The notes beneath the pieces are model-generated. The model searched no databases and was not told the DNA's origin. It was given only the letters and a program-made list of their open reading frames with translations. Position numbers and translations under genes: made by a program. Positions 1,849 to 45,938 of a stretch of 64,000 nucleotides of DNA are shown here, piece after piece; position 1 is the first letter of the stretch; every line of letters begins with the position of its first letter. Source of the DNA: Escherichia phage vB_EcoS-26175I; sequence record NC_133255.1; one strand, given 5' to 3'.

Positions 1849-2246
1849 AGATTTCCTAATAAGATTAGAATTACTCCCTAATCTCTTGTAAACTTTTAGA
1901 GTAAAGTGCGAGTCCCTTCGCACAATAGGTTATTATGGAGTATTTTTTATTTTACTCACTTCTGTTTCAAGTGTGGACACACAGTTAACTAAAGCTAGAG
2001 CTTGATTTACTTCCGTAAGAAGTTTCTTAAGAGTAGTAATCCCTCCCTTTAAGCTATCAATTTCTTTTGCTTACTGGTCATTTTCATCCCTTAGCTGAAG
2101 AAGAGCTTCATGGTGTAGTACTCTGTCTTTTCATCGAACATGATGTTGTCCGCATATTGCCGAGTTTGATCGGACTGTATACTCACAACATCCGCGCGGA
2201 TGTAAAAACCCTGCAACAGCATGGTTTAGGAGGAATCCAAATGGTG

Positions 2247-2684: not shown

Positions 2685-2799
2685 CCTTGTTACAAACTGT
2701 TGTTGTGAACCTCCTGGAGATACAAGATAGTGATATATTTTTGTTGTGTTATTTTCGACTTGGCTCAGATAGTTGACGTTATCCGCGTCCGACGACGAT

Positions 2800-4893: not shown

Positions 4894-5315
4894 TATTGAG
4901 TTACTCCATCGCTGATGTATACTTTACCTTCCATAATACGGAAAGAACTGACTTCAGAGCCAATTACATCACGAGTCATTAGGATATCATAATAACCAGC
5001 AAAACGTTGTCTTGGGTTATACTTATCACGTTCTTTAGATGCTTTTTCACCAATATTAGTAACGTCTGCAACGGAAAGACTAATTGCAGCAGCACCTTGA
5101 GCAGCATCAATAACACGAGTTTTAAAGTTAGCTAGAACCTCGGCGTTCTCATCTAAACTAGATTTAATAGTTCCTCGGAGTGAATACCCCGTCAAGTTAA
5201 CAGGAATTTCTGTTGGTGGATATACACTATCATTAACATCCATAAACTGCATGATAAGACCATAAGGTACTTTTTCATCAACAACAATATCAATAACTCG
5301 GTTTTCTGTACTCAT
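4893..5315 (-). CDS. tail collar protein (T5 p132-like)
   Basis: 140-aa ORF, same length and position as T5 p132 downstream of pb4. Confidence 0.55.
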
Positions 5316-5320
5316 TATAA

Positions 5321-10228: not shown

Positions 10229-10839
10229 AGACTTTCCCTCAAGGAAAGTGAAATACCAGTATATGTACCATTGCTATTTAACGTAGAGCCGAAGCTATCT
10301 CCGTTCATTAACTTAGTTCTAAATAGAATACCATTAAATACTGGTTTCTCACTACCCGTAGTAGTAATGAATAGATCAGGGTAAACACTTATATTCCAAG
10401 TATTCCCTACTGTGTTGATGGAAGTGATTTTATACACTTTTGGGTGGCTAGACAATTTAAATAAATCACCTGGTTTAGGCAGTCCACGAAGTGTACCCTT
10501 AGTATCCATAATAACTATTGAACCTTTTTGTCCAGCAGGAATATTTACAGCACTAGTATCGCCATGAACTCGGAAGGCTTCATATTGTGGTAATAACACA
10601 TCAATATAGCCACCTGTTCTTTTATAATCTAGAATGAATGAGTCTAATTTAGCAAATTCATCTGGGAATAATTCTGGATAAGAGATATTAATACCCCAAT
10701 ATTGAGCAGACACCTTAACCTCCCTAACTTTACCATTAGGTAATTCATCACGAATCATAGGGTCATTGTCTACTAAGTTAACGCTTTCAAAACCTAACCC
10801 TGATAGCTCTGGGTTCGTGTATGGGTCTGGTAGTCTCAT
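10225..10839 (-). CDS. distal tail protein Dit (T5 pb9-like)
   Basis: 204-aa ORF immediately after tape measure gene; same length as T5 pb9. Confidence 0.65.
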   Translation of the reverse strand: MRLPDPYTNPELSGLGFESVNLVDNDPMIRDELPNGKVREVKVSAQYWGINISYPELFPDEFAKLDSFILDYKRTGGYIDVLLPQYEAFRVHGDTSAVNIPAGQKGSIVIMDTKGTLRGLPKPGDLFKLSSHPKVYKITSINTVGNTWNISVYPDLFITTTGSEKPVFNGILFRTKLMNGDSFGSTLNSNGTYTGISLSLRESL

Positions 10840-10904
10840 AGTTAATTTCTCCTCTTAATAACAATATTATAATAGGATTGGAAAATTTTATCAAGAAATT
10901 TTTA

Positions 10905-10941
10905 TTTTTCCATAAAGAAAAGGAGGACATAAAGTCCTCCT
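10905..10941 (-). terminator. rho-independent terminator after tape measure gene
   Basis: Hairpin AGGAGGAC-N5-GTCCTCCT with T-rich tail on minus strand. Confidence 0.55.
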
Positions 10942-10947
10942 CCAGTA

Positions 10948-25333: not shown

Positions 25334-25815
25334 TATCTCTTACCTCCTCCTGCTAGAGCGGTAATAAGATTCATATAGTTTTCGTCACCACTTCCAGCAA
25401 TAATATTATTCTGAATGTTAGTCTGGTTAGCTGGAGTACGGGCTGCTGCCTTCACTTTCTCCAGTTCTACCATCATTTTCATTTCTTCCATCTTCATCTT
25501 GTGCGCCTTCCAGAGAATATCCATGATATCCTGGTCAGAACCCATGCCAGTTTCTTCGAGTTCTTCCAACTTGCGCTTGATAACTTCATCAAGAACTCCG
25601 AATAAGCGGTCACGATTACGGAAGCCACTTTCCATAAAGATATCGTTGAGATAGTTTTTAACTTCCCCACGATTCATTATATCACGGAATGCAATCTCGG
25701 ACATTCCAAGACTACGAGCGGCGGCAGGAACATCACTACCGCACTGTAAATAGGCTTCAATAACATCCATGCCTTCGGGAGACATGAGATCGGGAACTAA
25801 TACATCATTTGCCAT
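25333..25815 (-). CDS. terminase small subunit (putative)
   Basis: 160-aa ORF overlapping start of large subunit; N-terminal HTH-like [15 protein letters not shown]. Confidence 0.55.
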
Positions 25816-28943: not shown

Positions 28944-29057
28944 GTTAGCGCTAATTACCAATTCTCGAAATCTCATAAGATTACACATGCGGGTGGGCCC
29001 AGAGGTTCCCTAGATGAGAATGAGTCTCATTACCGCCCCGATACTTAGCAAGCTAAT

Positions 29058-29103
29058 AGTCACACCATGTTATCATTACACAGTGTGACTATTTTATTTT
29101 TAA
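29058..29103 (+). terminator. rho-independent terminator ending the llp-side plus-strand unit
   Basis: Inverted repeat agtcacac...gtgtgact followed by ATTTTATTTTTAAT. Confidence 0.5.
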
Positions 29104-29106
29104 TTG

Positions 29107-29841
29107 TTAGGCAACTTTTAATTTGTCGATGAATTGTTGCGGAGTGGTACTATATTCCGCGCGTTCTTCCTCGGTCATACCTTCCCAACACATTTTTAAA
29201 CGGTCGGCTAGGAATTGATAATCATTATCATCATCTAACGATTCATCAATAAAGGTTTCACCGATCAATGTTACGCCGATTGATAGGATATCATTAACGG
29301 CTTGAGCGTCCAGCGTTTTAAACCCAGCATTTGCTGCCGCTGATAATACACCTTTATGATCATCAATCATCGTAAAATCAGCATTAGGATATAGCTGCTT
29401 AAATAGTTCAAAGTAATAAGATTTATATACAGCATCTTTGCTGTGGTATATTTCGCTAACCTTATCCGCTTCAAAGTATTTATGTAATGTATCGCGGGAA
29501 AATACGCGGATATTACTATTTCCGCGCCCTCGCAAGCCTTGTTTGCGTAAATAAAAGTAATCACTTTTAGACATAAGGCGAGCGGTACAAATAATATTTA
29601 AAGTATTTGCATCATTCATACATTGGCGCATATATTCAACCAATGGCAATAAAGAATCCTGCATAATTAAATCATGCTTACAGGCTTCGCGGGAATATTT
29701 ATTTAAATCTAAATTCCCGTTATCATCAAAGCAAGGTGCTACACGATGGAAAGAATTTATAATCGTTCCATCTAAATCCCAAATCATAACGCGGGAAATA
29801 TGAGGGAAAGTGCGGGTAATATTCATGTTAACTTGATTCAT
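29107..29841 (-). CDS. dmp: 5'-deoxyribonucleotidase Dmp (HAD-family, pre-early)
   Basis: 244-aa ORF; HAD motif I WDLDGTII; size and first position in pre-early block as T5 dmp. Confidence 0.75.
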   Translation of the reverse strand: MNQVNMNITRTFPHISRVMIWDLDGTIINSFHRVAPCFDDNGNLDLNKYSREACKHDLIMQDSLLPLVEYMRQCMNDANTLNIICTARLMSKSDYFYLRKQGLRGRGNSNIRVFSRDTLHKYFEADKVSEIYHSKDAVYKSYYFELFKQLYPNADFTMIDDHKGVLSAAANAGFKTLDAQAVNDILSIGVTLIGETFIDESLDDDNDYQFLADRLKMCWEGMTEEERAEYSTTPQQFIDKLKVA

Positions 29842-29920
29842 TTGTTTCTCCTGTTAAGGGTAGTTAGTTCAATCTTGCCAGCTAATTATATTAGATTAGC
29901 TGGCAATGTTCAATTAACTA

Positions 29921-30313
29921 TTAGTTAGTGAGGCCATACGCTAGCGCGTCACCGATAAAGGAAAGGTCTTCACCATGTACACTAGAACGGATACCCGCGC
30001 AAGTATAAACCATTGCGCTAGCTTCGGGATTGCAGACCGGACACGGCTTAACAACCGCAAATGCTAGACCGGATTTAAGCGCATCAATAATGATTGTTTG
30101 CACTGTCAAAGTATCAGCGTAAACGCCTTTTGCTTTCGTATGGCTTGCCACTTTGCCGGTATCATAAGCAAAGGTAGTAACCTGCAAAGCATCGTTATAA
30201 TTCAGCAAATCGAAATTAACTTGCCCCGCTTCGACGTGATAACGCTCGCCGTTAGAATAAACTAGAACGATGGAAGAAGTAGCGCGGTCAAAAGGAATGT
30301 TTTGGTTTTTCAT
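29921..30313 (-). CDS. hypothetical pre-early protein
   Basis: 130-aa ORF in pre-early block. Confidence 0.45.
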   Translation of the reverse strand: MKNQNIPFDRATSSIVLVYSNGERYHVEAGQVNFDLLNYNDALQVTTFAYDTGKVASHTKAKGVYADTLTVQTIIIDALKSGLAFAVVKPCPVCNPEASAMVYTCAGIRSSVHGEDLSFIGDALAYGLTN

Positions 30314-30345
30314 GTTTATGACTCCAGATTATTTAATTACGGGAT

Positions 30346-30624
30346 TTATTGAAAAAATACATTTAAAGATAAATCAGTTTTACGAAAATATGTTTCGTCG
30401 CCGTCTTTCCTTTCTTGATTAAGGTAATCGCCTGTCATTACCTGAATAGAATCTTTTCCGAAAAAGATCATATTTTCGCCAATATTACTATCCCATACGG
30501 CGTACATTCCCGCGTACATTCCACGGGTAACTAAATAAACGCAACTATCAAAAGACATTTCCGACCATGCAATATCTTCTAAACAATTGCTATCAGGGAT
30601 AGATATATTAATTTTACTAGCCAT
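30346..30624 (-). CDS. hypothetical pre-early protein
   Basis: 92-aa ORF in pre-early block. Confidence 0.4.
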   Translation of the reverse strand: MASKINISIPDSNCLEDIAWSEMSFDSCVYLVTRGMYAGMYAVWDSNIGENMIFFGKDSIQVMTGDYLNQERKDGDETYFRKTDLSLNVFFQ

Positions 30625-30676
30625 TTAATAAACCTTTTATTAATGGCGGTATATTTCAACCGCCGATTAAATTTAA

Positions 30677-32479
30677 TTATGCAAAGAATTTACCGTTTTT
30701 GAAATCAATCAAAGTACGTTGCCCGTTTGCATAGGTAATTAAATGCGTTTGCGTCCAGCTACTAGCGCCAACGTTGTAGCCCATATCAAGGGAACCAGCA
30801 ACGCCAGCGGTATAAACGCCGCCGTAAATGCTAGCCGTGTGAGTGTGACCAGTGTTAAGGCGTCCCAACTTTTTAAACTGCTTAGGGTTGCCCCGACTGC
30901 CGTTAATGCCATTGTGACCATGTACGCCGCACTCAATGCCAGCGATTTTAAATGATTGGTCAGTAGTTAAGAAAATGGCGTTAAATACACATCCTGCAAC
31001 GTAGCGAAGGGCGTAATCCAATACGTTAAAGGTATCATTCTGTTTTGCAATTGCAGAGTAAATCGCAGCGTTTAAGCTGTGGTATAGTTCGGCGTTTGCG
31101 GGGTCGTCTTTAATGTTAGCGTTACGATCATCTAGCCAGCGTGAAAGAGCTAAATCATGGTTAGATTCAACAATGATTGTTTGAGAGAAATCACGCTCCA
31201 TTGATTCTAAAACGCGTCCAGTATCGATAAGATCATCTAAAACCTTGTCACGTCCTGCGGCGTACTGTTTAGCAAGGAATACACCACTTGCGCGGTTATG
31301 ATGATTGCGGGATGTAAAATCGTGTACGTCATGGATAAACTGATATTTCGGTTTAAGAATATCAAGCAAGCTGTTTTCACTAGCCCATGATGCAACGGCG
31401 CAATCATCATCTAATTTTTCGGCGTGAATATCGCCATATTGCAAGCCTAGAACATGATCGGACGTTTCAAAACATCCGGTAGGCATAGCGCAAACATTCA
31501 AATCATAGAACATTCCGCTTTCATCCATTGTTTCAAGCTGGCGCGCAAAAAATTCGCCGTCGTCGTCAAACTCCACCAGCAAAGCGCCGAAATTATGCAA
31601 CGCCTCAGCTTTTTGACCTGCTTTCTGCTGAATGTAGTTTTTAAGTGTAGCCGTTCCAGTTGAATACATACGGCGCACTACTTCACCTTTTAACGCTGGC
31701 ACACTTTCAGCGGTGATTTTAGCGTGACCAATTGCCAGACCTTCGATATTTAAAGCGGTGGCGGTTTCTGCGAATCCTGAAAGCGGATAATCAGCCGTGG
31801 GCAAAACGTTAATTTCAGCCATGAAAGCAAAGCGGCGGTTATTTAAAAATACGTTTTTATCACAAACATATTTATCAAATGCGGGATCGTATTTAATACC
31901 GTTTGCACCTTCCCCGTTCTGGAATCCATTTTTATTATAAATGAATTTACTGATTAGCAATTCAGCGCCGATATATTCAGCGAATTTTTCCAGACTTGCT
32001 AAAAAGTTTTTATGCGGGAAAGTATTATTTTGAACCGACGTTAGAATAAAACGGCGACCGGATTTAACTTCCCATTGTTCAACGGTACTAGAAACAATTC
32101 CCGCCGCTTCTGGACGATCATCATTTTTAATCGCCTTTTCAGCTTTTGCCGCTTTCGGTTTCGCTGGCTTATTTGCTTCCAGCCAGTCACAAATTGCGGT
32201 CGAATGTTTCGGCGTATCATAAACAGCTTTTGAAATATCGTCGCAAACTTCCAATTTAGTAGCGCGTAAACGCTTACCATAGAAATTAAAATCAGCGGCC
32301 ATTTTCAAAATTTGAGCTTGTTTTTCTGCGGAAATATTCATAACTAAATCAACTCCTATAAAGGGATAAATATTAATACTGGCAATATTGCCAAATATAA
32401 TGCCTTGCCCGAAGTGGGGACTTTTAAAGGCATTATAATTTGCAACATTATTCCGATAAAATAAATTGCACTTGTTCAA
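30677..32479 (-). CDS. A1: A1-like pre-early protein, calcineurin-like metallophosphoesterase
   Basis: 600-aa ORF; phosphoesterase motifs GDIHAEKLDDD and GHTHTASIYGG; position next to dmp and A2-like gene. Confidence 0.7.
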   Translation of the reverse strand: MNKCNLFYRNNVANYNAFKSPHFGQGIIFGNIASINIYPFIGVDLVMNISAEKQAQILKMAADFNFYGKRLRATKLEVCDDISKAVYDTPKHSTAICDWLEANKPAKPKAAKAEKAIKNDDRPEAAGIVSSTVEQWEVKSGRRFILTSVQNNTFPHKNFLASLEKFAEYIGAELLISKFIYNKNGFQNGEGANGIKYDPAFDKYVCDKNVFLNNRRFAFMAEINVLPTADYPLSGFAETATALNIEGLAIGHAKITAESVPALKGEVVRRMYSTGTATLKNYIQQKAGQKAEALHNFGALLVEFDDDGEFFARQLETMDESGMFYDLNVCAMPTGCFETSDHVLGLQYGDIHAEKLDDDCAVASWASENSLLDILKPKYQFIHDVHDFTSRNHHNRASGVFLAKQYAAGRDKVLDDLIDTGRVLESMERDFSQTIIVESNHDLALSRWLDDRNANIKDDPANAELYHSLNAAIYSAIAKQNDTFNVLDYALRYVAGCVFNAIFLTTDQSFKIAGIECGVHGHNGINGSRGNPKQFKKLGRLNTGHTHTASIYGGVYTAGVAGSLDMGYNVGASSWTQTHLITYANGQRTLIDFKNGKFFA

Positions 32480-32681
32480 TTACCGAAAGAATAAGCGCGG
32501 TAATAATAAAGAATCTAGCCAGCCATAAGGCGCTATTTTGAGACTGTAAAAGCCATTTAGTATTTGTAACACTAATTGCTTTATTAGCGTATTCAAGGCA
32601 AAGTGAACCGAATTTATATTCTAGAGTATAGAATAATGCCGCCATGAAATAACAAGCTAGAACTATATAAATGTTAATCAC
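32448..32681 (-). CDS. small membrane protein
   Basis: 77-aa ORF with two hydrophobic segments; 3' end overlaps A1 start. Confidence 0.4.
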   Translation of the reverse strand: MINIYIVLACYFMAALFYTLEYKFGSLCLEYANKAISVTNTKWLLQSQNSALWLARFFIITALILSVIEQVQFILSE

Positions 32682-32730
32682 TAAATTCTCCTTTAAGGGA
32701 TAGCGGGGAATAATCCCCGCTAATTAAAAT

Positions 32731-33147
32731 TTATTCACCTGCGGCCTGTTTTACTTCCTCCGCTACGCCTAACAATTGCGCTACGGCTTCCAGCGTTTCA
32801 AGTTTTGCACTTTCCAAACTTGCCAGATCATCGGCATCTTTAATAACGCCAGCATCAATGGCATGTTTAGCCATAACGCGCACATAGTGAGCTTTACGGA
32901 TTGAGCTACCGCCGCCAACTTTGCGAGGCTTGTCGCTTTTCTGATACGCTTTCGCGCTGGTCAGTTTAGAACGTACAGACACTGGACTAGCAGCGCCAAC
33001 GGCGGCGGCAATTTCTTTCAGGCCGTCACTGTTAGCAAATTCAATTCCGCTTTTAGCGACCATTTCAGAATACATAGAAACAGCTTTTTCGGTGTTTTCT
33101 TCGTTCCAAGAGAATTTTGCGGTTTTTTCGGTTTTAACGTTAGACAT
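32731..33147 (-). CDS. A2-like pre-early protein (putative)
   Basis: 138-aa ORF (GGAG RBS) immediately upstream of A1; assignment by size/synteny only. Confidence 0.45.
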   Translation of the reverse strand: MSNVKTEKTAKFSWNEENTEKAVSMYSEMVAKSGIEFANSDGLKEIAAAVGAASPVSVRSKLTSAKAYQKSDKPRKVGGGSSIRKAHYVRVMAKHAIDAGVIKDADDLASLESAKLETLEAVAQLLGVAEEVKQAAGE

Positions 33148-33454
33148 AGTTTAATACTCCATTCAATTATTAATTAAGGGATTATGATTAACTAAATGTT
33201 AATCGCTATATATTCTAATTAGATAATTAATATTACCGCTTTCGCTTAGACAATTAATTATTTAATACAGCTAGAATATATAACGGAAACATTTTATTTT
33301 TATTTCCTATTTAATGCCTTTTAGCGGCGACATTGTATATATACGCTGTCGATCTGATCACTATTACCCCATTCGACGGGAATCGTTAACGCTAGATTAT
33401 TCGAATCATCGTTATAGCCTGATTAAGCGTGATATGTTTAGTTACTACCGCTTA

Positions 33455-33706
33455 TTATGCGATAGCTTGCCATTTATCTTCCTTTTGAATGACCTTTACA
33501 ACGTCGCCAGATTTAACGCGAACGTTATAAATTGGCTTGCCGTTGTTACTGCGTTCCGTTTCAGCGTATACCGCTTCGATTTTATCGAAAGGAACAAGCG
33601 CCGCACCTTTAATACGTTCGGCTTTTCCGGTTAATTCATCCGTTTTAGTAACAAAAGGAATGAATACAGATTGACCTACTTTCGGCGCGGTAATAACGTT
33701 TTGCAT
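33455..33706 (-). CDS. hypothetical pre-early protein
   Basis: 83-aa ORF. Confidence 0.4.
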   Translation of the reverse strand: MQNVITAPKVGQSVFIPFVTKTDELTGKAERIKGAALVPFDKIEAVYAETERSNNGKPIYNVRVKSGDVVKVIQKEDKWQAIA

Positions 33707-33870
33707 TTTTAATACTCCGGTTTATTGGGGATTATTCCACAATAGCGCCTCGATACTTTGAAACGCTATTAGATTATAATCCGCTAGGAGTTAGCCTAAA
33801 CATTACCGTTATCCAAATTGTTAAAGAGCAGTTACTACGGGGAACATCTTAAAACCTATCGGCTAGCGTG

Positions 33871-34089
33871 TCAAGCGTTTTTTAAACTTTTTTCGATTTG
33901 ATGGGAGTTATATAAATCAATCATTATATTACGCCACACCATTTCCAGACCTTGCTGCTTGCCTTTCTTGTATTGCTTGAATCGGTATTTTACCGATCGT
34001 TGCGCTACTGTCAACAAATTTTTTGTTCTGCTATCTAATGCACTAGCAGGTTTCGCACTAATCACTAAAGCGTTTTTTGATTTGATCAT
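33871..34089 (-). CDS. hypothetical basic protein
   Basis: 72-aa ORF, Lys/Arg-rich; first minus-strand gene next to the divergent control region. Confidence 0.4.
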   Translation of the reverse strand: MIKSKNALVISAKPASALDSRTKNLLTVAQRSVKYRFKQYKKGKQQGLEMVWRNIMIDLYNSHQIEKSLKNA

Positions 34090-34465
34090 TATCGTCGATT
34101 CCTTATATTATATAAGTTTACCGCCGATAGGCTTTAAGATGTTCCCTAGTTTTTAAAGAGCGCGGCGGTAAACTTTCCCGCCGTGTAGTTCGTCATTGCC
34201 GCCCTACGTGATAAATAATAGGAGAATACCGAGAAGGGCGCAACCTTATTTTTGTAAAGAAACGTAAAGACAAACGCCACTGCACCACGTCCAGCGGCGC
34301 ACTAAATTTAATGAAACGGGCGCGCGAATAACACCAAAACAACCATTTTAGCAAGTAATTTTCTCATTTATATTTGCTTTGCCCTACTTGACAAAATCTA
34401 AAATCCTCGTGGTGAGGTTTTCTCGGTGTACCCCTTATGATTGCCTATCTTTTCCTTTGAGGCGC

Positions 34466-34492
34466 TTAGAATGCGTTACAGAGCGTTTTAGA
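34466..34492 (+). repeat. 27-bp direct repeat TTAGAATGCGTTACAGAGCGTTTTAGA (left copy)
   Basis: Identical 27-mer at 37806-37832; partial inverted copy near 34962 and partial direct copy near 38912. Confidence 0.9.
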
Positions 34493-34537
34493 CCCTGTTA
34501 ATAACTTATACAAAAAGCAAAAATGAAATTTAATGAG

Positions 34538-34546
34538 TTATCCACT
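34538..34546 (+). promoter_or_regulatory. DnaA-box-like 9-mer TTATCCACT (8/9)
   Basis: One mismatch to TTATCCACA. Confidence 0.4.
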
Positions 34547-34821
34547 TGATTTTTCAAAAAAGTATTTTCTGCTATTATTTTTCATTGACAAATAAGTTTA
34601 GACGTGCATTGATTGGTTAGCAGACTAACAATCGCTAGGATGATAATCACGCTGGTGGATTGTAACAGCTGAAACAGTTAGCAGACTATTAATACTCTAG
34701 AAACCTGTTAGCCAACTAACTATTTCATATTATATAATATACATATAAATTAATAAGAAATAATAACTATAAGAAACTATCAGCTAAGTGAGAACCACTA
34801 TCATTTAGGTTATTCACAAAG

Positions 34822-34830
34822 TTATCCACA
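34822..34830 (+). promoter_or_regulatory. DnaA box TTATCCACA
   Basis: Perfect match to the E. coli DnaA box consensus. Confidence 0.6.
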
Positions 34831-34870
34831 GCACAAAATAACTTGACGCAATAGGCGACGTTTTGGCGAC

Positions 34871-34879
34871 TTATCCACA
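34871..34879 (+). promoter_or_regulatory. DnaA box TTATCCACA
   Basis: Perfect consensus match, 40 bp from the previous box. Confidence 0.6.
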
Positions 34880-34899
34880 GACTTATATACAGGTTATCC

Positions 34900-34919
34900 T
34901 ACTGTATAAATATACAGGG
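34900..34919. promoter_or_regulatory. LexA (SOS) box-like palindrome TACTGTATAAATATACAGGG
   Basis: CTGT-N8-ACAG palindrome, core CTGTATAAATATACAG identical to right-hand copy at 37865-37880. Confidence 0.5.
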
Positions 34920-35166
34920 TAAATAGGTAGCAGTAACAACCGCAATCAAATTTAAGCGGCCTAGAACGCATTCTAAGCGATTTTCTCACTGCTACCCTTA
35001 TTATAATAAAGCCTTGTGTACGCTTACAGAGAGCTAGAAATAGAAAACGCGCGGTTATCATAAAAACAGGCAGTAGGCAAGGAATAAAAAACCTTTTCTT
35101 TTTTCTTGCCCCTAGCGAACAATTATCTATATCATTCACTCACCGATTAACGAGGGAGACAAAGAA

Positions 35167-36168
35167 ATGTCTACTGTAAGAATTGCAGTACCAGCAAACG
35201 CCACTATTATTAAGGGTAGTTTGCGCAACCTGCTAGACGGATCAAGTCCAGCAAGCCTACAACATACGGCGGCAATGGTTGAAAAGATTCACGATGATAT
35301 TTTAGATAATAATGATACTCATTATTGTTTAAGTGATTTCACACAACTACTAGACCCTACCCGCGTTCTAGTGCTTTACAACCGTGACTATCACATCATG
35401 CGAAATCAGCGGGGAAGCGATATTGATTTTATCATTGTAGGTCACGACGAAAAAAGCTATATTGCCCGTGGTTACAATGTACAAGAAAAGGAAATGGTTT
35501 TCGCTACTCGCGTAAATGGTATTAATTCCAGCGATGTAGAAGATTTACTATCTAGTATTTGGGGCGAATTGACAAGCGCCATTAAACGTGCTGATAGTGA
35601 CGCAATCGAAACAACTGGCGTATTGTGTTTTGAACGCGCTAGCGGTAACATGTTGATCCCTAACGATTATTTAGAGTATGGGAATGAATCAAACGTTGCA
35701 AACGCTGGATTTACACTTTTACCGCTTGACAATGTAACAAAACAGGCTGTAAGATCTAACACTCAAACTTCAAGCGCAAATGCGCAAACTACTGAAAATA
35801 AAGGAAATATTATGTCTAAAGTATCTTCTATCGTTGCTGCTAACAAATCTGCTGTTGTAAACGCTGCTAAACTGGAAGCGGGTAAAATTGCACTGACTCA
35901 AATCACAAAAGTAGCGGCGAAAAAAGCACCGTTTATGATTAAAGGGTATATTGATACGCCGATTGGTCGTGTAGTGATCGCTAACCTGCTGAGTGTAGCG
36001 GTTGACCAGTACGCCCCGACTAATGCGAAAGCGAAAGCGGTAGCAGGCGCGGCAATGGAAGCAGCAATGCTGGAAATGGTGCAGAGTTTCAATATTGCTG
36101 AAATGATCGATGAAATGGTAAAAGGCATTGACATTTCTACTTTTACCACTAACACCGAAAGCGAGTAA
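35167..36168 (+). CDS. hypothetical two-domain protein (first gene of plus-strand operon)
   Basis: 333-aa ORF, GGGAG RBS; N-terminal ~200 aa domain, Thr/Ser/Gln linker, Ala/Lys-rich C-terminal domain; no motif I recognise. Confidence 0.6.
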   Translation: MSTVRIAVPANATIIKGSLRNLLDGSSPASLQHTAAMVEKIHDDILDNNDTHYCLSDFTQLLDPTRVLVLYNRDYHIMRNQRGSDIDFIIVGHDEKSYIARGYNVQEKEMVFATRVNGINSSDVEDLLSSIWGELTSAIKRADSDAIETTGVLCFERASGNMLIPNDYLEYGNESNVANAGFTLLPLDNVTKQAVRSNTQTSSANAQTTENKGNIMSKVSSIVAANKSAVVNAAKLEAGKIALTQITKVAAKKAPFMIKGYIDTPIGRVVIANLLSVAVDQYAPTNAKAKAVAGAAMEAAMLEMVQSFNIAEMIDEMVKGIDISTFTTNTESE

Positions 36169-36194
36169 TAAATAGTCTAATGTAAAGTTTTGTA

Positions 36195-36223
36195 AAGGTC
36201 GCCCTAATCGGCGGCCTTTTTTG
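36195..36223 (+). terminator. putative rho-independent terminator/attenuator after first operon gene
   Basis: GC-rich hairpin followed by TTTTTT, then a TATAAT hexamer. Confidence 0.4.
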
Positions 36224-36287
36224 TTATAATGCCTTTACACCGAAACGGTGGACTGAAAATTTTCCCTAATTTCTAGGAGGCGTTAAA

Positions 36288-36437
36288 ATGGTTATTTTTC
36301 GATCTATTCTGGCTAGTATCTTGGGCGCTATTTTATCCTTGTTTGTAATAGCTTTCGGCGTTCACGTGGTTATTATTGGAGCAGGTATCGCGGGGTTTTC
36401 TTACTTGTTAGGCTGTATGACTGGTAAAGGGGAATAA
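36288..36437 (+). CDS. small membrane protein (49 aa)
   Basis: ATG with AGGAGG RBS; hydrophobic throughout (ILASILGAILSLFVIAFGVHVVIIGAGIAGF); below ORF-track size cutoff. Confidence 0.5.
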   Translation: MVIFRSILASILGAILSLFVIAFGVHVVIIGAGIAGFSYLLGCMTGKGE

Positions 36438-36439
36438 AA

Positions 36440-36652
36440 ATGTTAAAGAATGTTTCCCTTGCCCGTTCCAAAGGTTTTAAGCTGGTGGATGTTAACACGT
36501 TCGAGCGTCCAGATTGTAAAATCGAATATGTAGCACGCAACAAAAACGCTTTCCGTGTTACAGAAAAGAAATTTGACAAGCGCGGCAATTTGGTAGCCGA
36601 AACGGTCAAACACTTTGCCACCTTTTACGCTGCATTTCGTGGGGTATTATAA
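36440..36652 (+). CDS. hypothetical protein
   Basis: 70-aa ORF, basic. Confidence 0.45.
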   Translation: MLKNVSLARSKGFKLVDVNTFERPDCKIEYVARNKNAFRVTEKKFDKRGNLVAETVKHFATFYAAFRGVL

Positions 36653-36759
36653 TGGAAAGGGCAATTGTTAAAATGTTAACTTTTGTTTGTGGCGTGTCTA
36701 GTGCTACTCTGTTGATCACGCTAGTGATTATGATTATCCGTGACGCGAGGATCTTTTAA
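36652..36759 (+). CDS. small membrane protein (35 aa)
   Basis: Start overlaps upstream stop; single TM segment. Confidence 0.35.
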   Translation: MERAIVKMLTFVCGVSSATLLITLVIMIIRDARIF

Positions 36760-37103
36760 TGGTAATTTATGAGGGCAATCGTTTTGTTACTAATTGCCGT
36801 CCGGCATTATTAGCAAACTATTTAAATCAGCTTTCACCAGTTTATAAAGGCGTAGTTAATATCTATGAGGGCAAAGCACATTATAAGATTAATGCCATTG
36901 TTGCCCGTGAACTAGCGTTTCAATTTTTAACTTTCGGGTCTTGTGACGTTCAGGTTATGGGGGAAGCGTTAATAGCAGAAAATGAAAATGAATTTATCGA
37001 CATTTTCCGCAAAGTATATACAGAGCGCCTGATTATGAAAGGCGCGTATATTCAATCAACCGCTGAAAGTATCGAAACAGCGTTTCGAAAGGTGGCGCAA
37101 TGA
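36759..37103 (+). CDS. hypothetical protein
   Basis: 114-aa ORF; ATG overlaps previous stop. Confidence 0.5.
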   Translation: MVIYEGNRFVTNCRPALLANYLNQLSPVYKGVVNIYEGKAHYKINAIVARELAFQFLTFGSCDVQVMGEALIAENENEFIDIFRKVYTERLIMKGAYIQSTAESIETAFRKVAQ

Positions 37104-37285
37104 CTAGAAATGAAGCTGTTAAAGCTATGTTAGAAGGTAAAAAAGTAACTCATCGTTATTTTTCCATGCATGAATATTTATTCATGAAATATGAAGTGAT
37201 CACCACGGAGGATGGTTATAAATTTAATCATGAATTTTATAGCCGTGAAATGTTTAATGATGGCTGGCAGCTTTATTATGAATAG
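37100..37285 (+). CDS. hypothetical protein
   Basis: 61-aa ORF; ATGA overlap with upstream gene. Confidence 0.45.
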   Translation: MTRNEAVKAMLEGKKVTHRYFSMHEYLFMKYEVITTEDGYKFNHEFYSREMFNDGWQLYYE

Positions 37286-37415
37286 CTGGTGGCGTAAAAC
37301 GCAAAGTCACAAATCTAATAATACCGCTGGGAATGTTTCCCAGCGTTTACGATTTGGTAATGGCTTTACAATGATATTGATAATCATTCTCATTCTAGGA
37401 GCGATGGCGTTATGA
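37277..37415 (+). CDS. small membrane protein (46 aa)
   Basis: Internal start of ORF 37212..37415 overlapping upstream stop; C-terminal TM segment FTMILIIILILGAMAL. Confidence 0.35.
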
Positions 37416-37507
37416 GACTATATATTTTCGTGGGTAATATTAAGCCTGCTAATGATCCCAACGGTGGCGACAATATCCGCCGCTATTTTCAACAATACAT
37501 CTATTAA
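37412..37507 (+). CDS. small hypothetical protein (31 aa)
   Basis: ATGA start/stop overlap with upstream ORF; AGGAG 10 nt upstream. Confidence 0.3.
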   Translation: MRLYIFVGNIKPANDPNGGDNIRRYFQQYIY

Positions 37508-37522
37508 TAACGGGGCGTTACT

Positions 37523-37717
37523 ATGAGTGATAAAATTGTTATTCGTAAAACTAGTGTTACCGTGGATACATTCTATGTAGAAGATACAAAAGAAAACCGC
37601 GCAATTTGTGAGAATCAAGAGTATGACAAACTTATATATGATGAGTATGGTTACTACACTAATCTAGTAGATTCCTACGGTGAAAGCGTAGAGTTCTCCC
37701 ATCAAATACCGGACTAA
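37523..37717 (+). CDS. hypothetical acidic protein (last gene of plus-strand operon)
   Basis: 64-aa ORF followed by hairpin terminator. Confidence 0.45.
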   Translation: MSDKIVIRKTSVTVDTFYVEDTKENRAICENQEYDKLIYDEYGYYTNLVDSYGESVEFSHQIPD

Positions 37718-37723
37718 TAATAA

Positions 37724-37752
37724 CGGGGCGCAACTATCGGCCCCGCCTTTTC
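37724..37752 (+). terminator. rho-independent terminator ending plus-strand operon
   Basis: Hairpin CGGGGC-N10-GCCCCG followed by CCTTTTCT. Confidence 0.5.
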
Positions 37753-37805
37753 TGGCCTTCCTCAAATTTTCCCTTATTAAAATACCCCCTCCAAAAATAA
37801 ACGCG

Positions 37806-37832
37806 TTAGAATGCGTTACAGAGCGTTTTAGA
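37806..37832 (+). repeat. 27-bp direct repeat TTAGAATGCGTTACAGAGCGTTTTAGA (right copy)
   Basis: Identical to 34466-34492. Confidence 0.9.
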
Positions 37833-37862
37833 GCTATATTAGAGTTATTCACCACGCAGGAA

Positions 37863-37882
37863 TACTGTATAAATATACAGTA
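37863..37882. promoter_or_regulatory. LexA (SOS) box-like palindrome TACTGTATAAATATACAGTA
   Basis: 19/20 match to TACTGTATATATATACAGTA. Confidence 0.5.
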
Positions 37883-37890
37883 GAATAACC

Positions 37891-37911
37891 TGTTGATAAG
37901 TCTGTTGATAA
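37891..37911 (-). promoter_or_regulatory. two tandem DnaA-box-like 9-mers TGTTGATAA
   Basis: Each is one mismatch from TGTGGATAA (reverse complement of TTATCCACA); copies at 37891-37899 and 37903-37911. Confidence 0.4.
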
Positions 37912-37963
37912 CGCCTCAAAATCGCTAGGATTTTGTCAAGTCAAATCGTGCTGTTAATAAACC

Positions 37964-37972
37964 TGTGGATAA
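37964..37972 (-). promoter_or_regulatory. DnaA box (TGTGGATAA, reverse orientation)
   Basis: Perfect reverse-complement match to TTATCCACA. Confidence 0.6.
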
Positions 37973-38015
37973 CTTAAATAACAGTGTTTCTCACTTCCCT
38001 TTCTAAATGCAAATC

Positions 38016-38150
38016 ATTCTCATTATGCGACTCATTCGCATTCAACTCTGTAAATGATAACCATTCTCATTCCGCTTTCTAAACGCGAATCATTCTCATT
38101 CGCATTCAACTTCTCAAATGCGAATCAATCTCATTATCATTCGCATTTCG
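38016..38150. repeat. degenerate tandem repeats built from CATTCTCATT and CGCATTCAAC units
   Basis: At least five copies of (A)ATCATTCTCATT.CGC and three of TCGCATTCAAC(T)TCT within 135 bp. Confidence 0.7.
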
Positions 38151-38179
38151 GCAGGCAGGGCATTTTCATTTTTGCCCTG

Positions 38180-38790
38180 CGCTTTTGTGCAAATCCGACA
38201 TTTGCCCCCACGGATTACGTGCCAGCGTGCATGTGCGAATCCGACAATTTTTGGTAGTGTGCAAATCCGATGGGAAATATTTTTTATATGTGCGAATCCG
38301 ACAATGAATTTTCCTAAAAACTCCAGCAATCAACAACTGCGATGCAATCCAGCTGGATTTACTAGAATATGTGCAGATCCGACAAGTGTTAAGGTGTGCG
38401 AATCCGACAAGATTTTTGTGACTTCGATGAGAGGGTGTGTGATTGTGTGAGTTTGGGGAGAAGTGCGAATCCGATGAGATTTTGGGAGGAACTACGGAAG
38501 GAGCAGCGGTGTTGGTGCTTCAGCACCGGTTTGCTGCGTTTTTGGGGATAATGTGGGATGTTTTGGCTAGAATTGAGATTAGGGGAGATAAAGCGAAATT
38601 TTATTAGCAAAATGGGGCAGAATAGCTTGACAAGTGAAAATTCCTGTGGCTCTAAAAACTCAGGCAAATATGGGCCTTCGGCCCGAAATAATGCTGCTAT
38701 TTTCAGTGTTCCTAAAAACTTTGGAGACTCCTATCAATGTGCAAATCCGACCATAAATTTCTAGAAACATAATGTGCAAATCCGATAGCA
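38180..38790. repeat. iteron-like array: at least 9 copies of GTGCRAATCCGAYR with irregular spacing
   Basis: Copies near 38190, 38233, 38270, 38291, 38372, 38397, 38463, 38740, 38773, each followed by AT-rich tails. Confidence 0.8.
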
Positions 38791-38819
38791 ATTTCCAGAA
38801 ATGTGTTTTGGAAAAATGT

Positions 38820-38900
38820 CTTCTAGAAATAACCGCCCTCCCTATAACCGCCCTCTATAGGAAACCGCCCTAGGATATGTAACGTTGGAGAGAAACTGCC
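38820..38900. repeat. short direct repeats AACCGCCCT x3 plus AACTGCCCT
   Basis: aaccgccctccctataaccgccctctataggaaaccgccct...aactgccct. Confidence 0.7.
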
Positions 38901-39323
38901 CTAGAATGCGTGAGTTTTCCTAGAAACTTAGGAGTCTACTAGAAAGTGTTGTGCCATCCTAGCAGATGAGCGGCAACCGGTGTATCATCTTGAACGTTAA
39001 TTTATCTATTCAACAGTATTAGTTTTTATATAAGTATAAGATCCCCCAGGGTTCTCATATAGAGCTTTGCCCCCCGTCAGAAGGTCTCGTGATGTTTCTA
39101 GTAATCTTTACTAAATTACCTGTTGACTTGTCCTGTCGCTCCGTAACCTACGCTACAAGTCAGTAATTTAAGATTCCTGAACCACCACACCTTCTGTGTG
39201 GCAACTCTAAATGGTTAATTTTATTAACTCATAGAGTTATGATAACATACATTTAGTTATCTGTCAACGAGAGTTTGTATTTGAGTCTCGGTACAGGTAT
39301 TGTGCACCGAGACATGCAGGATC

Positions 39324-40211
39324 TTACAGTAACTCTTGGTATGCTTTTTGATACGCCTCAGTGTTAGTAGGTGTATCTTTTGCAATAGCTATTAATTCAT
39401 CTGTGATCTGAATATTTGTATTATAACGTGTGTGGAACTCGTCAGGAATTTCTAAATATCTATTGATGAATGCTGCAGCAAGCGGTGAAGCTATACCCAT
39501 TTCTAGAACCCATCCAACTTGTTTCTCAAACTTCAGATAAGGAGATTCTGTTTGAGTAGTAGAAGTTTTGGTTTCCTTGACTTCTTTAGTTGGTAGAATT
39601 GGATTTTCATAACGTGCTTCTTCTGGAATAGCAGATCTACGTTCTTTATAAATATAAGTTTCTAGATCCGATGCTTTAGACCCTGAGTACACTGCAAAGA
39701 CACTTGCTTTACCTTGTGATGCTCTAATTGGAAGATAACAATTTGGATAGCTTCTTAAGGCATCATGGAACGGGCTTCCAGAATATTGATAACGATCTCC
39801 ATATAAATCATCAATATTCATTCGTTCATCTTCAAAGATGTGGAATGCACTAAATGAAGGTAGCGTAAAATATTCTGTCTCTAGCGCACGAATTAAGAAA
39901 CGATGTGCATATGCACTAATCTTAATAACTGTGTAAGGTTTTTCTCCTTCTTTAAGAGCGTTACCCTTAGATGTAACTTGATAACGTTTCCCAAAGAACT
40001 CTACTAAACGTTTCTCATTTAACGAGAGCGTAGAGTATAAACGTCCATTCAGTCCTAGCAAAGTATCAAACATAAATGCTAGCTTATCTTTTTCTTCTTG
40101 GGTTAGTTCAGGGAACGGTAGGATCTTAGCATTTGGAATATTATTTGTTTCCTTAGCTTTTCCTTTGCCAGCATTTTGTCTCAGTTTGTCTTTAAAATTA
40201 TATGTACTCAT
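39324..40211 (-). CDS. hypothetical early protein (last gene of early transcription block)
   Basis: 295-aa ORF. Confidence 0.55.
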   Translation of the reverse strand: MSTYNFKDKLRQNAGKGKAKETNNIPNAKILPFPELTQEEKDKLAFMFDTLLGLNGRLYSTLSLNEKRLVEFFGKRYQVTSKGNALKEGEKPYTVIKISAYAHRFLIRALETEYFTLPSFSAFHIFEDERMNIDDLYGDRYQYSGSPFHDALRSYPNCYLPIRASQGKASVFAVYSGSKASDLETYIYKERRSAIPEEARYENPILPTKEVKETKTSTTQTESPYLKFEKQVGWVLEMGIASPLAAAFINRYLEIPDEFHTRYNTNIQITDELIAIAKDTPTNTEAYQKAYQELL

Positions 40212-40280
40212 TGTGTTTCCTTTTTAAGGTCAGATGACCTGCTTTTTATTTTAAAGCCTCCGTAGAGGCTTGTGTATTAG

Positions 40281-40529: not shown

Positions 40530-41140
40530 TAACGACCTCTAGCCTTATCTGCATCAATAGCTTCGAATACTTTCGTTAACATTTCTTCAAGCTCACCTTC
40601 TTTGCTAGGATTGCTCAAACGAATAGTATATGAGTTCCTAGAAACTCCGGAGTCTTCCTGTGCTCCGCGATCTTTAGCAAAGCTCATCATTGTAACGCCA
40701 GCTTTATTCCACTCGTCTACGCTAGACGCTTCCCCAAACTTATATGATTGCGTATTACTCACCACGCCACCACAAGGAATATTGTGCATATCCGACATTA
40801 ATCTTTTATCGGAGTTATTCAGCATTGCGATTGGTCCCGACTGCCACGGATCTCTAATAGTCACTGGAGTACTAGGGCGATTCACCTCAGTCTTCACGAG
40901 TTTGTACCCCGCATCGATCAGTGCATTAATCAGATTATCAGCCGGGATGCGAGCTGTGCCAAAGATAGCACGAGCATTCATGAGTTTAGCCTGAAATTCC
41001 TTGCAACCTTGAAGATCAGTGTGCAAAAACGACAGTTGCATAGATTTAAACTGTACTGTAGCAGTCAGATCTTTAAAGCTGTAATCCCATGTGTCGAGTT
41101 CATGATCTGCTACTACTTTAATGGTTTGTTGTGTAAACAT
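40529..41140 (-). CDS. hypothetical protein
   Basis: 203-aa ORF. Confidence 0.55.
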   Translation of the reverse strand: MFTQQTIKVVADHELDTWDYSFKDLTATVQFKSMQLSFLHTDLQGCKEFQAKLMNARAIFGTARIPADNLINALIDAGYKLVKTEVNRPSTPVTIRDPWQSGPIAMLNNSDKRLMSDMHNIPCGGVVSNTQSYKFGEASSVDEWNKAGVTMMSFAKDRGAQEDSGVSRNSYTIRLSNPSKEGELEEMLTKVFEAIDADKARGR

Positions 41141-45347: not shown

Positions 45348-45938
45348 TCAAACATTAATATCTCCCCTTAATACTGCTGCCACATCTTCACCGATTTGGA
45401 GTACTTCACCAGTAGTGCAGTTAACCACTTTATCATAGCTTGTGAACTTGCCAGACACAATATCTTCTAGAGGAATAGGAGTCTTACTCATCTCAAAAGA
45501 GACGTTGATATAATGTGGGTCACGCACAGAATTGGTGTGCACATGTCCGTGAATATTTAGCTTACCACGAAGTTCTGCTTCGTGCAATGGACAGTGTGAC
45601 AGCCAAAACTTCTTGCCACCACCTGTTTGCTTACCTAGAGCCTGAATATCATCATAAACGTCTACAAGATCTTTAATACGCAGACCCTGACGTTCAGCAT
45701 CGTGGTTGCCCATGATTAACTGGTTAGGCACATTGTGGATAACCGACTTTAATTTAGCCAACCCTTCACGCCCCACGGCAATATCCCCTAGCAAGACGAG
45801 CTTAGTACGCTTGCCAATGTGCTTGGACAAAGTATCTAGGATATATTCATCATGTTCTTTCATGTTCTTAAACCACGGACGGAAGCGAAGAGTTCCAGGG
45901 TGGTCTAAGTGCAAATCCGACCAGAATTTAACTTTCAT
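45348..45938 (-). CDS. calcineurin-like metallophosphoesterase
   Basis: 196-aa ORF; motifs DLHLDH, GDIAVG, GNHD, GHVH. Confidence 0.8.
   Translation of the reverse strand: MKVKFWSDLHLDHPGTLRFRPWFKNMKEHDEYILDTLSKHIGKRTKLVLLGDIAVGREGLAKLKSVIHNVPNQLIMGNHDAERQGLRIKDLVDVYDDIQALGKQTGGGKKFWLSHCPLHEAELRGKLNIHGHVHTNSVRDPHYINVSFEMSKTPIPLEDIVSGKFTSYDKVVNCTTGEVLQIGEDVAAVLRGDINV

What the first reader, a model, noticed from the sequence alone, without database searches (positions are those of the whole stretch)
38016..38900. Iteron-like repeat array in a 1.6-kb non-coding, convergent zone
At least nine copies of GTGCRAATCCGAYR with irregular 25-80-bp spacing, preceded by CATTCTCATT/CGCATTCAAC tandem units and followed by three AACCGCCCT repeats, in a region with no ORFs and no promoter motif, located where the plus-strand operon and the early minus-strand block converge. 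Irregular spacing and short unit length argue for a protein-binding array (injection-stop signal, partition or replication-origin-like site, or terminal-repeat boundary).
Basis: seen in the sequence. Interest (0 to 1): 0.65.

Follow-up and report, generated by a model that had tools for sequence, protein, structure and literature searches.

The report
Known T5 injection-stop repeat array
The repeats are real, but they are the already described "DRD" repeat array of the injection-stop region at the inner end of the long terminal repeat of T5-like phages; what protein binds them and what they do is still untested.

Summary
Nine same-strand copies of TGTGCRAATCCGAY lie at 38186-38787 (about 0.1 expected by chance). 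A CATTCTCATT/GCGAAT hexamer block precedes them and three TAACCGCCCT copies follow, in a zone with no coding or RNA signature.

The window is a T5-like phage, 100% identical to Escherichia phage vB_EcoS-26175III-V. The zone aligns at 79% with T5 9329-11895. That region is T5 "Repeat Region 3", annotated in RefSeq as the injection stop signal, where nine "DRD" repeats are already described. No function has been assigned to them.

- The right end of the terminal repeat maps by homology to 38652 (…CTGTGGCTC|TAAAAAC). It falls in the gap between DRD cluster A (7 copies, inside the repeat) and cluster B (2 copies, outside).
- The array starts 4 nt after the conserved nick motif CCCTGCGC| (38182|38183).
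- The 15-bp motif, its strand and the module order persist in Sugarlandvirus, Pectobacterium phages, a Vibrio phage and an uncultured relative (A1 31-34% identical).
- The essential pre-early protein A2 models as a GcrA/Myb-like helix-turn-helix protein.

Best reading: a protein-binding array at the first-step/second-step transfer boundary. A terminase recognition role at the genome end is a serious rival. Origin and partition roles are unsupported.

The parts
37865..37996 (.). Counterpart of T5 IRD'-spacer-IRC'. It is a 132-nt arm of a long inverted repeat whose partner lies at 34786-34917. It carries two pairs of DnaA or DnaA-like boxes on the - strand, each pair separated by 3 nt: 37891-37899, 37903-37911, 37952-37960 and 37964-37972.
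   Evidence: Inverted repeat I1, 75% complementary. TTATCCACA at 37964-37972(-) and at 34822 and 34871(+). Sequence read. Described for T5-like phages by Davison 2020. It is the most conserved block of the zone, at 0.91.
38003..38150 (+). Hexamer block: CATTCTCATT and CGCATTCAAC units built from GCGAAT/GAGAAT and ATTCTC/ATTCGC hexamers. It corresponds to the T5 DRE/DRC/palindrome region.
   Evidence: families D2, D5; 12 hexamers per 160 nt, the window maximum; mean 1.7, sd 1.4. GC skew -0.48.
38155..38182 (+). Hairpin GCAGGGCA-loop-TGCCCTGC overlapping the nick motif CCCTGCGC (38175-38182). The inferred nick lies on the - strand between 38182 and 38183.
   Evidence: The T5 major single-chain interruption at 9748/9749 reads CCCTGCGC|TTTTGTGC. 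The two other annotated T5 nicks also read CCCTGCGC|T. The window has the same sequence. The nick itself cannot be tested here.
38186..38476 (+). DRD cluster A, inside the terminal repeat: seven copies of TGTGCRAATCCGAY at 38186, 38232, 38258, 38289, 38370, 38395 and 38462.
   Evidence: Motif columns are 0.88 conserved against 0.76 for other columns.
38477..38652 (+). G-rich last part of the terminal repeat. It holds a terminator-like hairpin at 38521-38536 and a nearly invariant terminal block from 38595. The inferred right end of the terminal repeat is at 38652 (…TTGACAAGTGAAAATTCCTGTGGCTC|).
   Evidence: The same terminal sequence ends at least 7 full-length T5-like records. The annotated repeat ends of T5 and EscoHU1 fall at that junction, and those of vB_SenS-3 and Stitch 3-4 nt further right. 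GC skew +0.47 to +0.57. Hairpin. Conservation.
38653..38737 (+). Conserved block just outside the terminal repeat, with the hairpin GGGCCTTCGGCCC at 38673-38685.
38738..38787 (+). DRD cluster B, outside the terminal repeat: two copies at 38738 and 38773.
   Evidence: Conservation 0.87.
38830..38902 (+). Three copies of TAACCGCCCT (38830, 38845, 38862) plus one degenerate copy at 38894-38902. These probably correspond to T5 'DRA' copies 2 and 3. A related TAACCGCC lies 35 nt from the T5 left end.
   Evidence: Also present in My1, Sugarland, IME260 and Stubb.
40783..40796 (+). Solitary DRD copy (TGTGCATATCCGAC, 1 mismatch) inside the homolog of T5.019. T5 has a perfect copy at the same place (12153).
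   Evidence: Only 0.03 such sites are expected per window. A second solitary copy at 45908 lies in a phosphoesterase CDS, where it encodes SDLHL.
32731..33147 (-). Gene A2, the candidate binder. This link is inferred, not shown.
25348..25812 (-). Terminase small subunit gene, the rival candidate binder. This link is also inferred, not shown.
   Evidence: PHROG 3802 'terminase small subunit', E 1e-88. 41% identical to River4 gp18.

Best explanation
This is the counterpart, in an Epseptimavirus-like coliphage, of the 'DRD' direct-repeat array of T5 Repeat Region 3. That region is the non-coding module at the inner (right) end of the roughly 9.7-kb terminal repeat, and the T5 literature calls it the injection-stop-signal region.

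The array is a set of same-strand, non-palindromic 15-bp sites, T-GTGCRAATCCGA-Y-A, usually followed by a short T-tract. I read these as binding sites for one sequence-specific DNA-binding protein.

The array starts 4 nt beyond the conserved nick motif that marks the 8% point where first-step transfer pauses, and it continues across the end of the terminal repeat. My preferred mechanism is that the array is the part of the stop/restart module engaged once pre-early proteins have been made. The essential pre-early DNA-binding protein A2, together with A1, would bind the sites lying at and just beyond the arrest point. This would hold, release or ratchet in the second-step DNA.

Shown here: identity with the T5 array, anatomy, position and conservation. 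Inferred: that the sites are protein-bound, that they control transfer, and that A2 is the binder.

My separate confidences are: homolog of the T5 DRD array 0.97; protein-binding array 0.8; role in transfer control about 0.4; A2 as the binder about 0.25.
For: Identity:
- The zone is 100% identical to vB_EcoS-26175III-V, and 524 T5-like records match it.
- It aligns with T5 9329-11895 at 79%.
- T5 RefSeq annotates 9140-10149 as 'injection stop signal (iss)' and places a major nick at 9748/9749.
- T5 has nine copies of the motif at 9753-10491, matching the 'nine DRD repeats' of Davison 2020.

Site-like behaviour:
- The core is invariant while spacing and copy number change. Spacings are 46/26/31/81/25 in Markadamsvirinae, 53/44/21/81/27 in Sugarlandvirus, 17/27 in the Pectobacterium phages My1 and DU_PP_V, and a tight 15-bp tandem in uncultured relatives.
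- The Vibrio phage River4 (A1 31% identical) keeps about 10 copies after the same DnaA boxes and GCGC motif.
- All copies lie on one strand.
- Information content defines a 15-bp unit.
- Motif columns are more conserved than spacers, 0.88 against 0.76.

Position: the first copy lies 4 nt from CCCTGCGC|, which is 8.0% of the T5 genome.

Candidate binder:
- A2 models as an all-helical protein whose N-terminal domain best matches the GcrA DNA-binding domain and Myb-like domains. Such folds read asymmetric sites, often in arrays.
- Its third helix is the best-conserved segment across genera.

Non-coding and non-RNA.
Against: - No binding data exist, so the A2-DRD link rests on plausibility alone.
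- The terminase small subunit is as conserved as A2 between the window phage and River4, 41% against 42%. Conservation therefore does not discriminate between them.
- Proteus phage Stubb has A1 and A2 but only one degenerate copy next to the nick motif. A multi-copy array is therefore not required wherever A1 and A2 exist.
- Cluster A is duplicated in the right terminal repeat, where it cannot serve DNA entry, and the array brackets the genome end. Both points fit a packaging role equally well.
- The repeat end and the nick position in this window are inferred by homology, not measured.
Confidence: 0.4

Rival explanations
1. Packaging or terminus-formation signal. The DRD copies would be recognition sites for the terminase small subunit, or another end-defining factor. 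They bracket the cut that creates the right genome end, in the manner of lambda cosB or SPP1 pacL/pacR around the cleavage site. Alternatively they would slow the packaging motor before the terminal cut.
For: - The right end of the terminal repeat (…CTGTGGCTC|TAAAAAC, window 38652) lies in the gap between cluster A and cluster B. The same holds in T5, EscoHU1, Stitch, vB_SenS-3, IME260 and at least 6 further full-length records.
- About 110 bp around that end is nearly invariant.
- The Vibrio phage River4 shows the same bracketing within about 20 nt.
- Cluster A is present in both terminal repeats, as a packaging signal at a concatemer junction would be.
- A terminase small subunit gene is present.
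Against: - No DRD copy lies near the left end of the terminal repeat, which must also be cut.
- Stubb packages its DNA with only a single degenerate copy.
- A conserved solitary copy 2 kb further right, inside a CDS, is not expected of a packaging site.
- Two records from one study (pork27, chee130_1) place the repeat end about 210 bp further left, inside the array.
- The direction of T5 packaging is not known to me.
Confidence: 0.25
2. Host-factor array causing the arrest. A conserved gammaproteobacterial DNA-binding protein would bind the DRD sites on the entering DNA and physically stop transfer, as Davison proposed for DnaA at the neighbouring boxes. A1 and A2 would later remove the block.
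For: - The motif is kept almost unchanged in phages of Escherichia, Salmonella, Klebsiella, Pectobacterium and Vibrio. This is the pattern seen for the neighbouring DnaA boxes, whose binder is a host protein.
- The array lies at the arrest point.
- From memory, not checked here: T5 ejects its whole genome in vitro, which suggests that a cell component is needed for the stop.
Against: - I could not match the motif to any host factor site I know. This is recall only, with no database test.
- Copies beyond the arrest point (cluster B and the solitary copy) would not yet be inside the cell when transfer stops.
- The array is absent from Stubb.
Confidence: 0.15
3. Replication-origin-like site. DnaA boxes, an A+T-rich hexamer block and iteron-like direct repeats would form an origin, as in iteron plasmids.
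For: The architecture resembles iteron origins: four DnaA or DnaA-like boxes, a hexamer block and nine direct repeats in a non-coding zone. Davison notes the resemblance of the box arrangement to oriC.
Against: - The T5 origins are reported near the genome centre, and the replication genes are not expressed during first-step transfer.
- No initiator gene lies next to the array.
- There is no similarity to any plasmid.
Confidence: 0.07
4. The zone encodes a protein or a structured or sponge RNA, and the repeats act at that level.
For: - Mechanical ORFs of up to 110 aa exist, and several GenBank records annotate hypothetical proteins here.
- A strong promoter-like site at 39267..39239(-) points into the zone.
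Against: - ORFs differ between relatives.
- Indels are mostly not multiples of 3, and there is no third-position excess.
- There is no PHROG hit for these ORFs and no Rfam hit.
- Folding z-scores are +0.94 and -0.38.
- T5 RefSeq annotates no gene here.
Confidence: 0.03
5. Partition (centromere-like) site.
For: Only the general look of a direct-repeat array.
Against: This is a virulent phage. No ParA or ParB homolog lies among the flanking ORFs, and there is no plasmid similarity.
Confidence: 0.01

Closest known systems
T5 Repeat Region 3 / injection stop signal region, with its nine 'DRD' direct repeats (NC_005859 misc_feature 9140-10149; Davison 2020, bioRxiv 10.1101/866236, which attributes the earlier descriptions to its references 5 and 6)
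   Same: The sequences are homologous (79% over 2.5 kb). The order is the same: DnaA-box inverted repeat, hexamer/DRE block, hairpin with CCCTGCGC nick motif, DRD cluster, end of the terminal repeat, DRD cluster, TAACCGCCCT repeats. The motif and strand are the same, and the spacings 46/26/31/81/25 are nearly identical.
   Different: The window has 7+2 copies and T5 has 6+3. The extra copy at 38462 is absent from T5, and the T5 copy at 10478 is absent here. The left-end sequences of the two phages differ.
Terminase recognition arrays next to a cleavage site (lambda cosB R sites; SPP1 pacL/pacR) - comparison from general knowledge
   Same: Several short protein-binding repeats lie within a few hundred bp of, and here on both sides of, the sequence-specific cut that makes a genome end.
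   Different: No binding by the T5 terminase has been shown. The sites are all direct and on one strand. Nothing similar lies at the other cut, the left end of the terminal repeat. The array also coincides with the DNA-entry arrest point.
Iteron-type plasmid origins (DnaA boxes, A+T-rich region, iterons) - comparison from general knowledge
   Same: DnaA boxes lie next to an array of 15-bp direct repeats in non-coding DNA.
   Different: There is no adjacent initiator gene, no plasmid homology, and the T5 origins are reported elsewhere.
Short repeat arrays flanking the T7 terminal repeat - recalled from memory, not checked
   Same: Arrays of short repeats of unknown function lie next to a direct terminal repeat.
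   Different: The phage family and the sequences are unrelated, the T7 repeat is only 160 bp, and T7 has no two-step transfer.

Membership tests
T5-type injection-stop / Repeat Region 3 module (DRD array) | T5-like genome with dmp, A1 and A2 in the terminal repeat, upstream of the zone | tested here: met
   dmp, A1 and A2 ORFs lie at 29107-33147(-). They align with T5 and vB_SenS-3, and A2 matches PHROG 1725.
T5-type injection-stop / Repeat Region 3 module (DRD array) | Sequence homology with T5 Repeat Region 3 and the same order of elements | tested here: met
   One alignment covers T5 9329-11895 and window 37783-40280 at 79%. The DRD copies lie in register with the same spacings.
T5-type injection-stop / Repeat Region 3 module (DRD array) | Paired DnaA boxes in IRD'-spacer-IRC', with an inverted partner upstream | tested here: met
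   Arms at 37865-37996 and 34786-34917. Boxes confirmed.
T5-type injection-stop / Repeat Region 3 module (DRD array) | Location at the inner end of the long terminal repeat | tested here: met
   By homology the repeat spans about 28997-38652. It was not measured for this phage, because the window comes from a collapsed, permuted assembly.
T5-type injection-stop / Repeat Region 3 module (DRD array) | Strand-specific nick at the 8% position | not testable with these tools
   Only the motif CCCTGCGC| at 38175-38182 is seen.
T5-type injection-stop / Repeat Region 3 module (DRD array) | Cis-acting arrest of DNA transfer in vivo | not testable with these tools
   This needs infection experiments. 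Which sub-element causes the stop is unresolved even for T5.
Terminase recognition (pac/cos-type) site | Lies next to the sequence-specific cut that makes a genome end | tested here: met
   The conserved terminal sequence at 38652 lies between the two DRD clusters.
Terminase recognition (pac/cos-type) site | Bound by the terminase small subunit | not testable with these tools
   The gene is present at 25348-25812(-). No binding data exist.
Iteron replication origin | Initiator (Rep) gene next to the iterons | tested here: not met
   The flanking ORFs have no Rep family hit in Pfam or PHROGs.
Iteron replication origin | Replication starts at the site | not testable with these tools
   The literature places the T5 origins near the genome centre.
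Partition centromere | ParA/ParB-type genes next to the repeats | tested here: not met
   None among the 10 flanking ORFs.

The most novel reading that the evidence does not exclude
The DRD array is a family-wide 'translocation-control track' of the Demerecviridae. One conserved protein, A2 or a virion/terminase factor, would bind the same-strand 15-bp sites on both sides of the end of the terminal repeat. The same array would then serve two purposes: it would set where DNA movement pauses on entry (the first-step/second-step boundary), and it would set where the packaging machinery defines the right genome end. This would explain why the arrest point and the end of the terminal repeat lie within about 470 bp of each other in every genus examined.
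Probability: 0.15. Interest if true: 0.75.

Novelty: already known. Interest (0 to 1): 0.3.

Why it matters
How T5 stops DNA entry after 8% of the genome, and restarts it with A1 and A2, has been unexplained since 1968. The DRD array is a sharply defined 15-bp motif conserved across the family, and it lies exactly at that boundary and around the genome end. That makes it a concrete reagent for binding and deletion experiments. As a finding it is a re-discovery of a described feature. The useful additions are the placement of the repeat end between the two clusters, the conservation as far as Vibrio phages, and the GcrA/Myb-like fold of A2.

Tried and rejected
1. Recognition site of the T5 nicking enzyme. 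The two other annotated major nicks of T5 share CCCTGCGC|T but have no DRD copy nearby. Rejected.

2. A DNA-binding site widespread in bacteria. A two-copy pattern scan of 185,579 genomes gave 36 hits in very diverse phyla, against about 2 expected by my naive estimate. Inspection showed mostly tandem repeats in which the whole unit, spacer included, is repeated. No gene family recurs next to them, and one hit is a T5-like contaminant. Rejected as a by-product of tandem repeats.

3. Protein-coding ORFs in the zone. Rejected.

4. Known or structured RNA. No support.

5. Plasmid iteron homology. None.

6. Using divergence of A2 against the terminase small subunit to pick the binder. Both are about 41-44% identical between genera, so this was uninformative.

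7. Helical phasing of the copies. The spacings are not multiples of 10.5 bp. No support for binding on one face of the helix.

8. The 2015 review by Davison could not be retrieved.

Full report
**What is there**

- The pattern GTGCRAATCCGAYR, with at most one mismatch, occurs 11 times in the 64-kb window, always on the + strand, against 0.12 expected. Nine copies lie at 38187-38787.
- They form two clusters. Cluster A has seven copies at 38186-38476, with spacings 46, 26, 31, 81, 25 and 67. Cluster B has two copies at 38738 and 38773. A 276-bp gap separates the clusters.
- Upstream lies a block of CATTCTCATT and CGCATTCAAC units at 38003-38150. It is the densest GNNAAT/ATTNNC hexamer region of the whole window.
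- Downstream lie three exact AACCGCCCT copies and one degenerate copy.
- The zone sits between the last + strand ORF, which ends at 37717, and the first - strand ORF at 39324-40211.

**It is non-coding and shows no RNA signal**

- Mechanical ORFs of up to 110 aa exist, but their limits and frames differ among 24 related sequences.
- Indels are mostly 1, 2 or 8 nt, and substitutions show no third-position excess.
- The two longest ORFs hit no PHROG family.
- Rfam gives nothing.
- Both strands of cluster A fold no better than shuffled sequence, with z-scores of +0.94 and -0.38.

**Where the window comes from**

- The zone is 100% identical to Escherichia phage vB_EcoS-26175III, IV and V, and 524 T5-like phage records match it.
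- Alignment with T5 and with Salmonella phage vB_SenS-3 shows dmp, A1 and A2 at 29107-33147(-). The zone itself aligns with T5 9329-11895 at 79%.
- T5 RefSeq annotates a left terminal repeat at 1-10219, an 'injection stop signal (iss)' at 9140-10149, and a major single-chain interruption at 9748/9749.
- T5 carries the same motif nine times at 9753-10491.
- Davison's 2020 preprint describes this 'Repeat Region 3' in detail. It lists the IRD'-spacer-IRC' inverted repeat with paired DnaA boxes, two DRE repeats, 'nine DRD repeats' and DRA copies 2 and 3. It states that no role can be assigned to most of these elements.

1. *The end of the terminal repeat.*
   - The right end of the DNA in at least seven full-length T5-like records is …TTGACAAGTGAAAATTTCTGTGGCTC.
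   - The annotated repeat ends of T5 and EscoHU1 fall at that junction. Those of Stitch and vB_SenS-3 fall 3-4 nt further right.
   - In the window this maps to 38652 (…CTGTGGCTC|TAAAAAC), inside the gap between clusters A and B.
   - About 110 bp around it is almost invariant among 22 distinct Markadamsvirinae sequences.
   - Two records from one study place the end about 210 bp further left. That conflict is unresolved.
   - By homology with vB_SenS-3 alone, the left end of the repeat lies at about 28997.

2. *The nick.* T5's three annotated major nicks all read CCCTGCGC|T. The window has this motif at 38175-38182, overlapping a hairpin, 4 nt before the first DRD copy.

3. *The motif.* Over 240 distinct copies, the informative unit is T-GTGCRAATCCGA-Y-A with a weak T-tract at +18 to +20. 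It is 15 bp long and not palindromic.

4. *Extra copies.* A solitary copy at 40783, inside the T5.019 homolog, matches a perfect copy at T5 12153. Another lies at 45908 in a phosphoesterase gene. Only 0.03 such sites are expected. T5 1-62500 has no further copies.

**Conservation across the family**

- The same motif, on the same strand and after the same elements, is found in the following phages:
  - Sugarlandvirus;
  - the Pectobacterium phages My1 and DU_PP_V (17/27-bp spacing);
  - an uncultured relative, where it forms a tight 15-bp tandem; its A1 is 34% identical;
  - the Vibrio phage River4, whose A1 is 31% identical.
- In River4 the repeated part of the record ends within about 20 nt of the equivalent TTGAC… element, again between DRD copies.
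- Proteus phage Stubb keeps the DnaA boxes, the nick motif and TAACCGCCCT, but has only one degenerate DRD copy.
- Within Markadamsvirinae, motif columns are more conserved than the other columns, 0.88 against 0.76.
- An invariant core with free spacing and copy number is what binding sites for a single protein look like. That is an inference.

**Mechanism**

Two readings fit the anatomy about equally well.

*Entry control.*
- The array begins at the 8% point where first-step transfer pauses.
- A1 and A2 are the only essential pre-early genes, and both are required for second-step transfer. A T5 mutant lacking hegG to 017, which removes Repeat Region 2, is still viable.
- I therefore prefer A2, together with A1, binding the array to hold, release or ratchet in the rest of the DNA.

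*Packaging.*
- The array brackets the cut that makes the right genome end.
- Cluster A is present in both terminal repeats.
- A terminase small subunit gene is present at 25348-25812(-).

*Points that weigh against each reading.*
- Against packaging: the left end of the repeat has no DRD copy.
- Against entry control: the literature places the stop to the left of the array.
- Against both: Stubb shows that a multi-copy array is not indispensable.
- A2 and the terminase small subunit are equally diverged between genera, so sequence alone cannot decide.

*Other roles.*
- A host factor causing the arrest remains possible.
- Origin and partition roles lack any support.

**Verdict**

Noticed in passing
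L008 (Klebsiella phage Sugarland, record 10138) and L057 (Proteus phage Stubb, record 11415): The 'terminal repeat' ends predicted by PhageTerm in these two GenBank records fall exactly after CCTGCGC. That is the conserved T5 nick motif, not the conserved terminal sequence …CTGTGGCTC found in other records. The nick may have been mistaken for a genome end, so these repeats may be annotated too short.
   Followed up: partly
window 29216, 36725, 37372, 37378, 38055: Fur-box-like sites (TGATAATNATTATCA, at most 2 mismatches) occur five times in the window, and all five lie inside the terminal repeat. One is a perfect copy inside dmp (29216), and one has a single mismatch (37378). None lie in the other 54 kb. 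T5-like phages use iron-regulated outer-membrane receptors.
   Followed up: no
window 29014-29040, T5 35-43 (L002), River4 record end (L060/L058): The left end of the terminal repeat carries ATGAGAATGAGTCTCAT, an inverted match to the CATTCTCAT units at 38006-38099. It also carries a TTACCGCCCC/TAACCGCC element like the TAACCGCCCT repeats at 38830-38871. The Vibrio phage River4 has the same pair at the end of its repeated segment.
   Followed up: partly
window 39239-39267 (- strand): A strong sigma-70-like promoter match (TTGACA, 17 nt, TATCAT, with an upstream TG) lies downstream of the last early gene. It points toward the end of the terminal repeat. The hairpin GGGCCGAAGGCCC at 38685-38673 could end such a transcript. 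The stretch 38911-39336 is the least conserved part of the zone, at 0.56.
   Followed up: no
window 38350-38650: The last roughly 300 bp of the terminal repeat are strongly G-rich on the + strand (GC skew +0.47 to +0.57), with repeated TTTGGGG-like runs. The hexamer block at 37975-38124 is C-rich (-0.48). Similar T-run/G-run elements are seen in My1, River4 and the uncultured relative.
   Followed up: no
window 40783-40796 and 45908-45921: Two solitary DRD copies lie on the + strand inside - strand coding genes. The first is conserved as a perfect copy in T5 (12153). The second encodes the SDLHL motif of a phosphoesterase and may be a coincidence maintained by coding constraint.
   Followed up: partly
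L047 (Klebsiella phage IME260, right end of the record): The right end of the record continues for about 20 nt beyond …CTGTGGCTC. That sequence differs from what follows the same motif at the left repeat/unique junction, which suggests the deposited end is not the physical end.
   Followed up: no
L028 about 2110-2125 (Pectobacterium phage My1): A Chi sequence (GCTGGTGG) lies on the + strand in the gap between DRD cluster A and the end of the terminal repeat of My1. The window has no equivalent. This was seen by eye.
   Followed up: no
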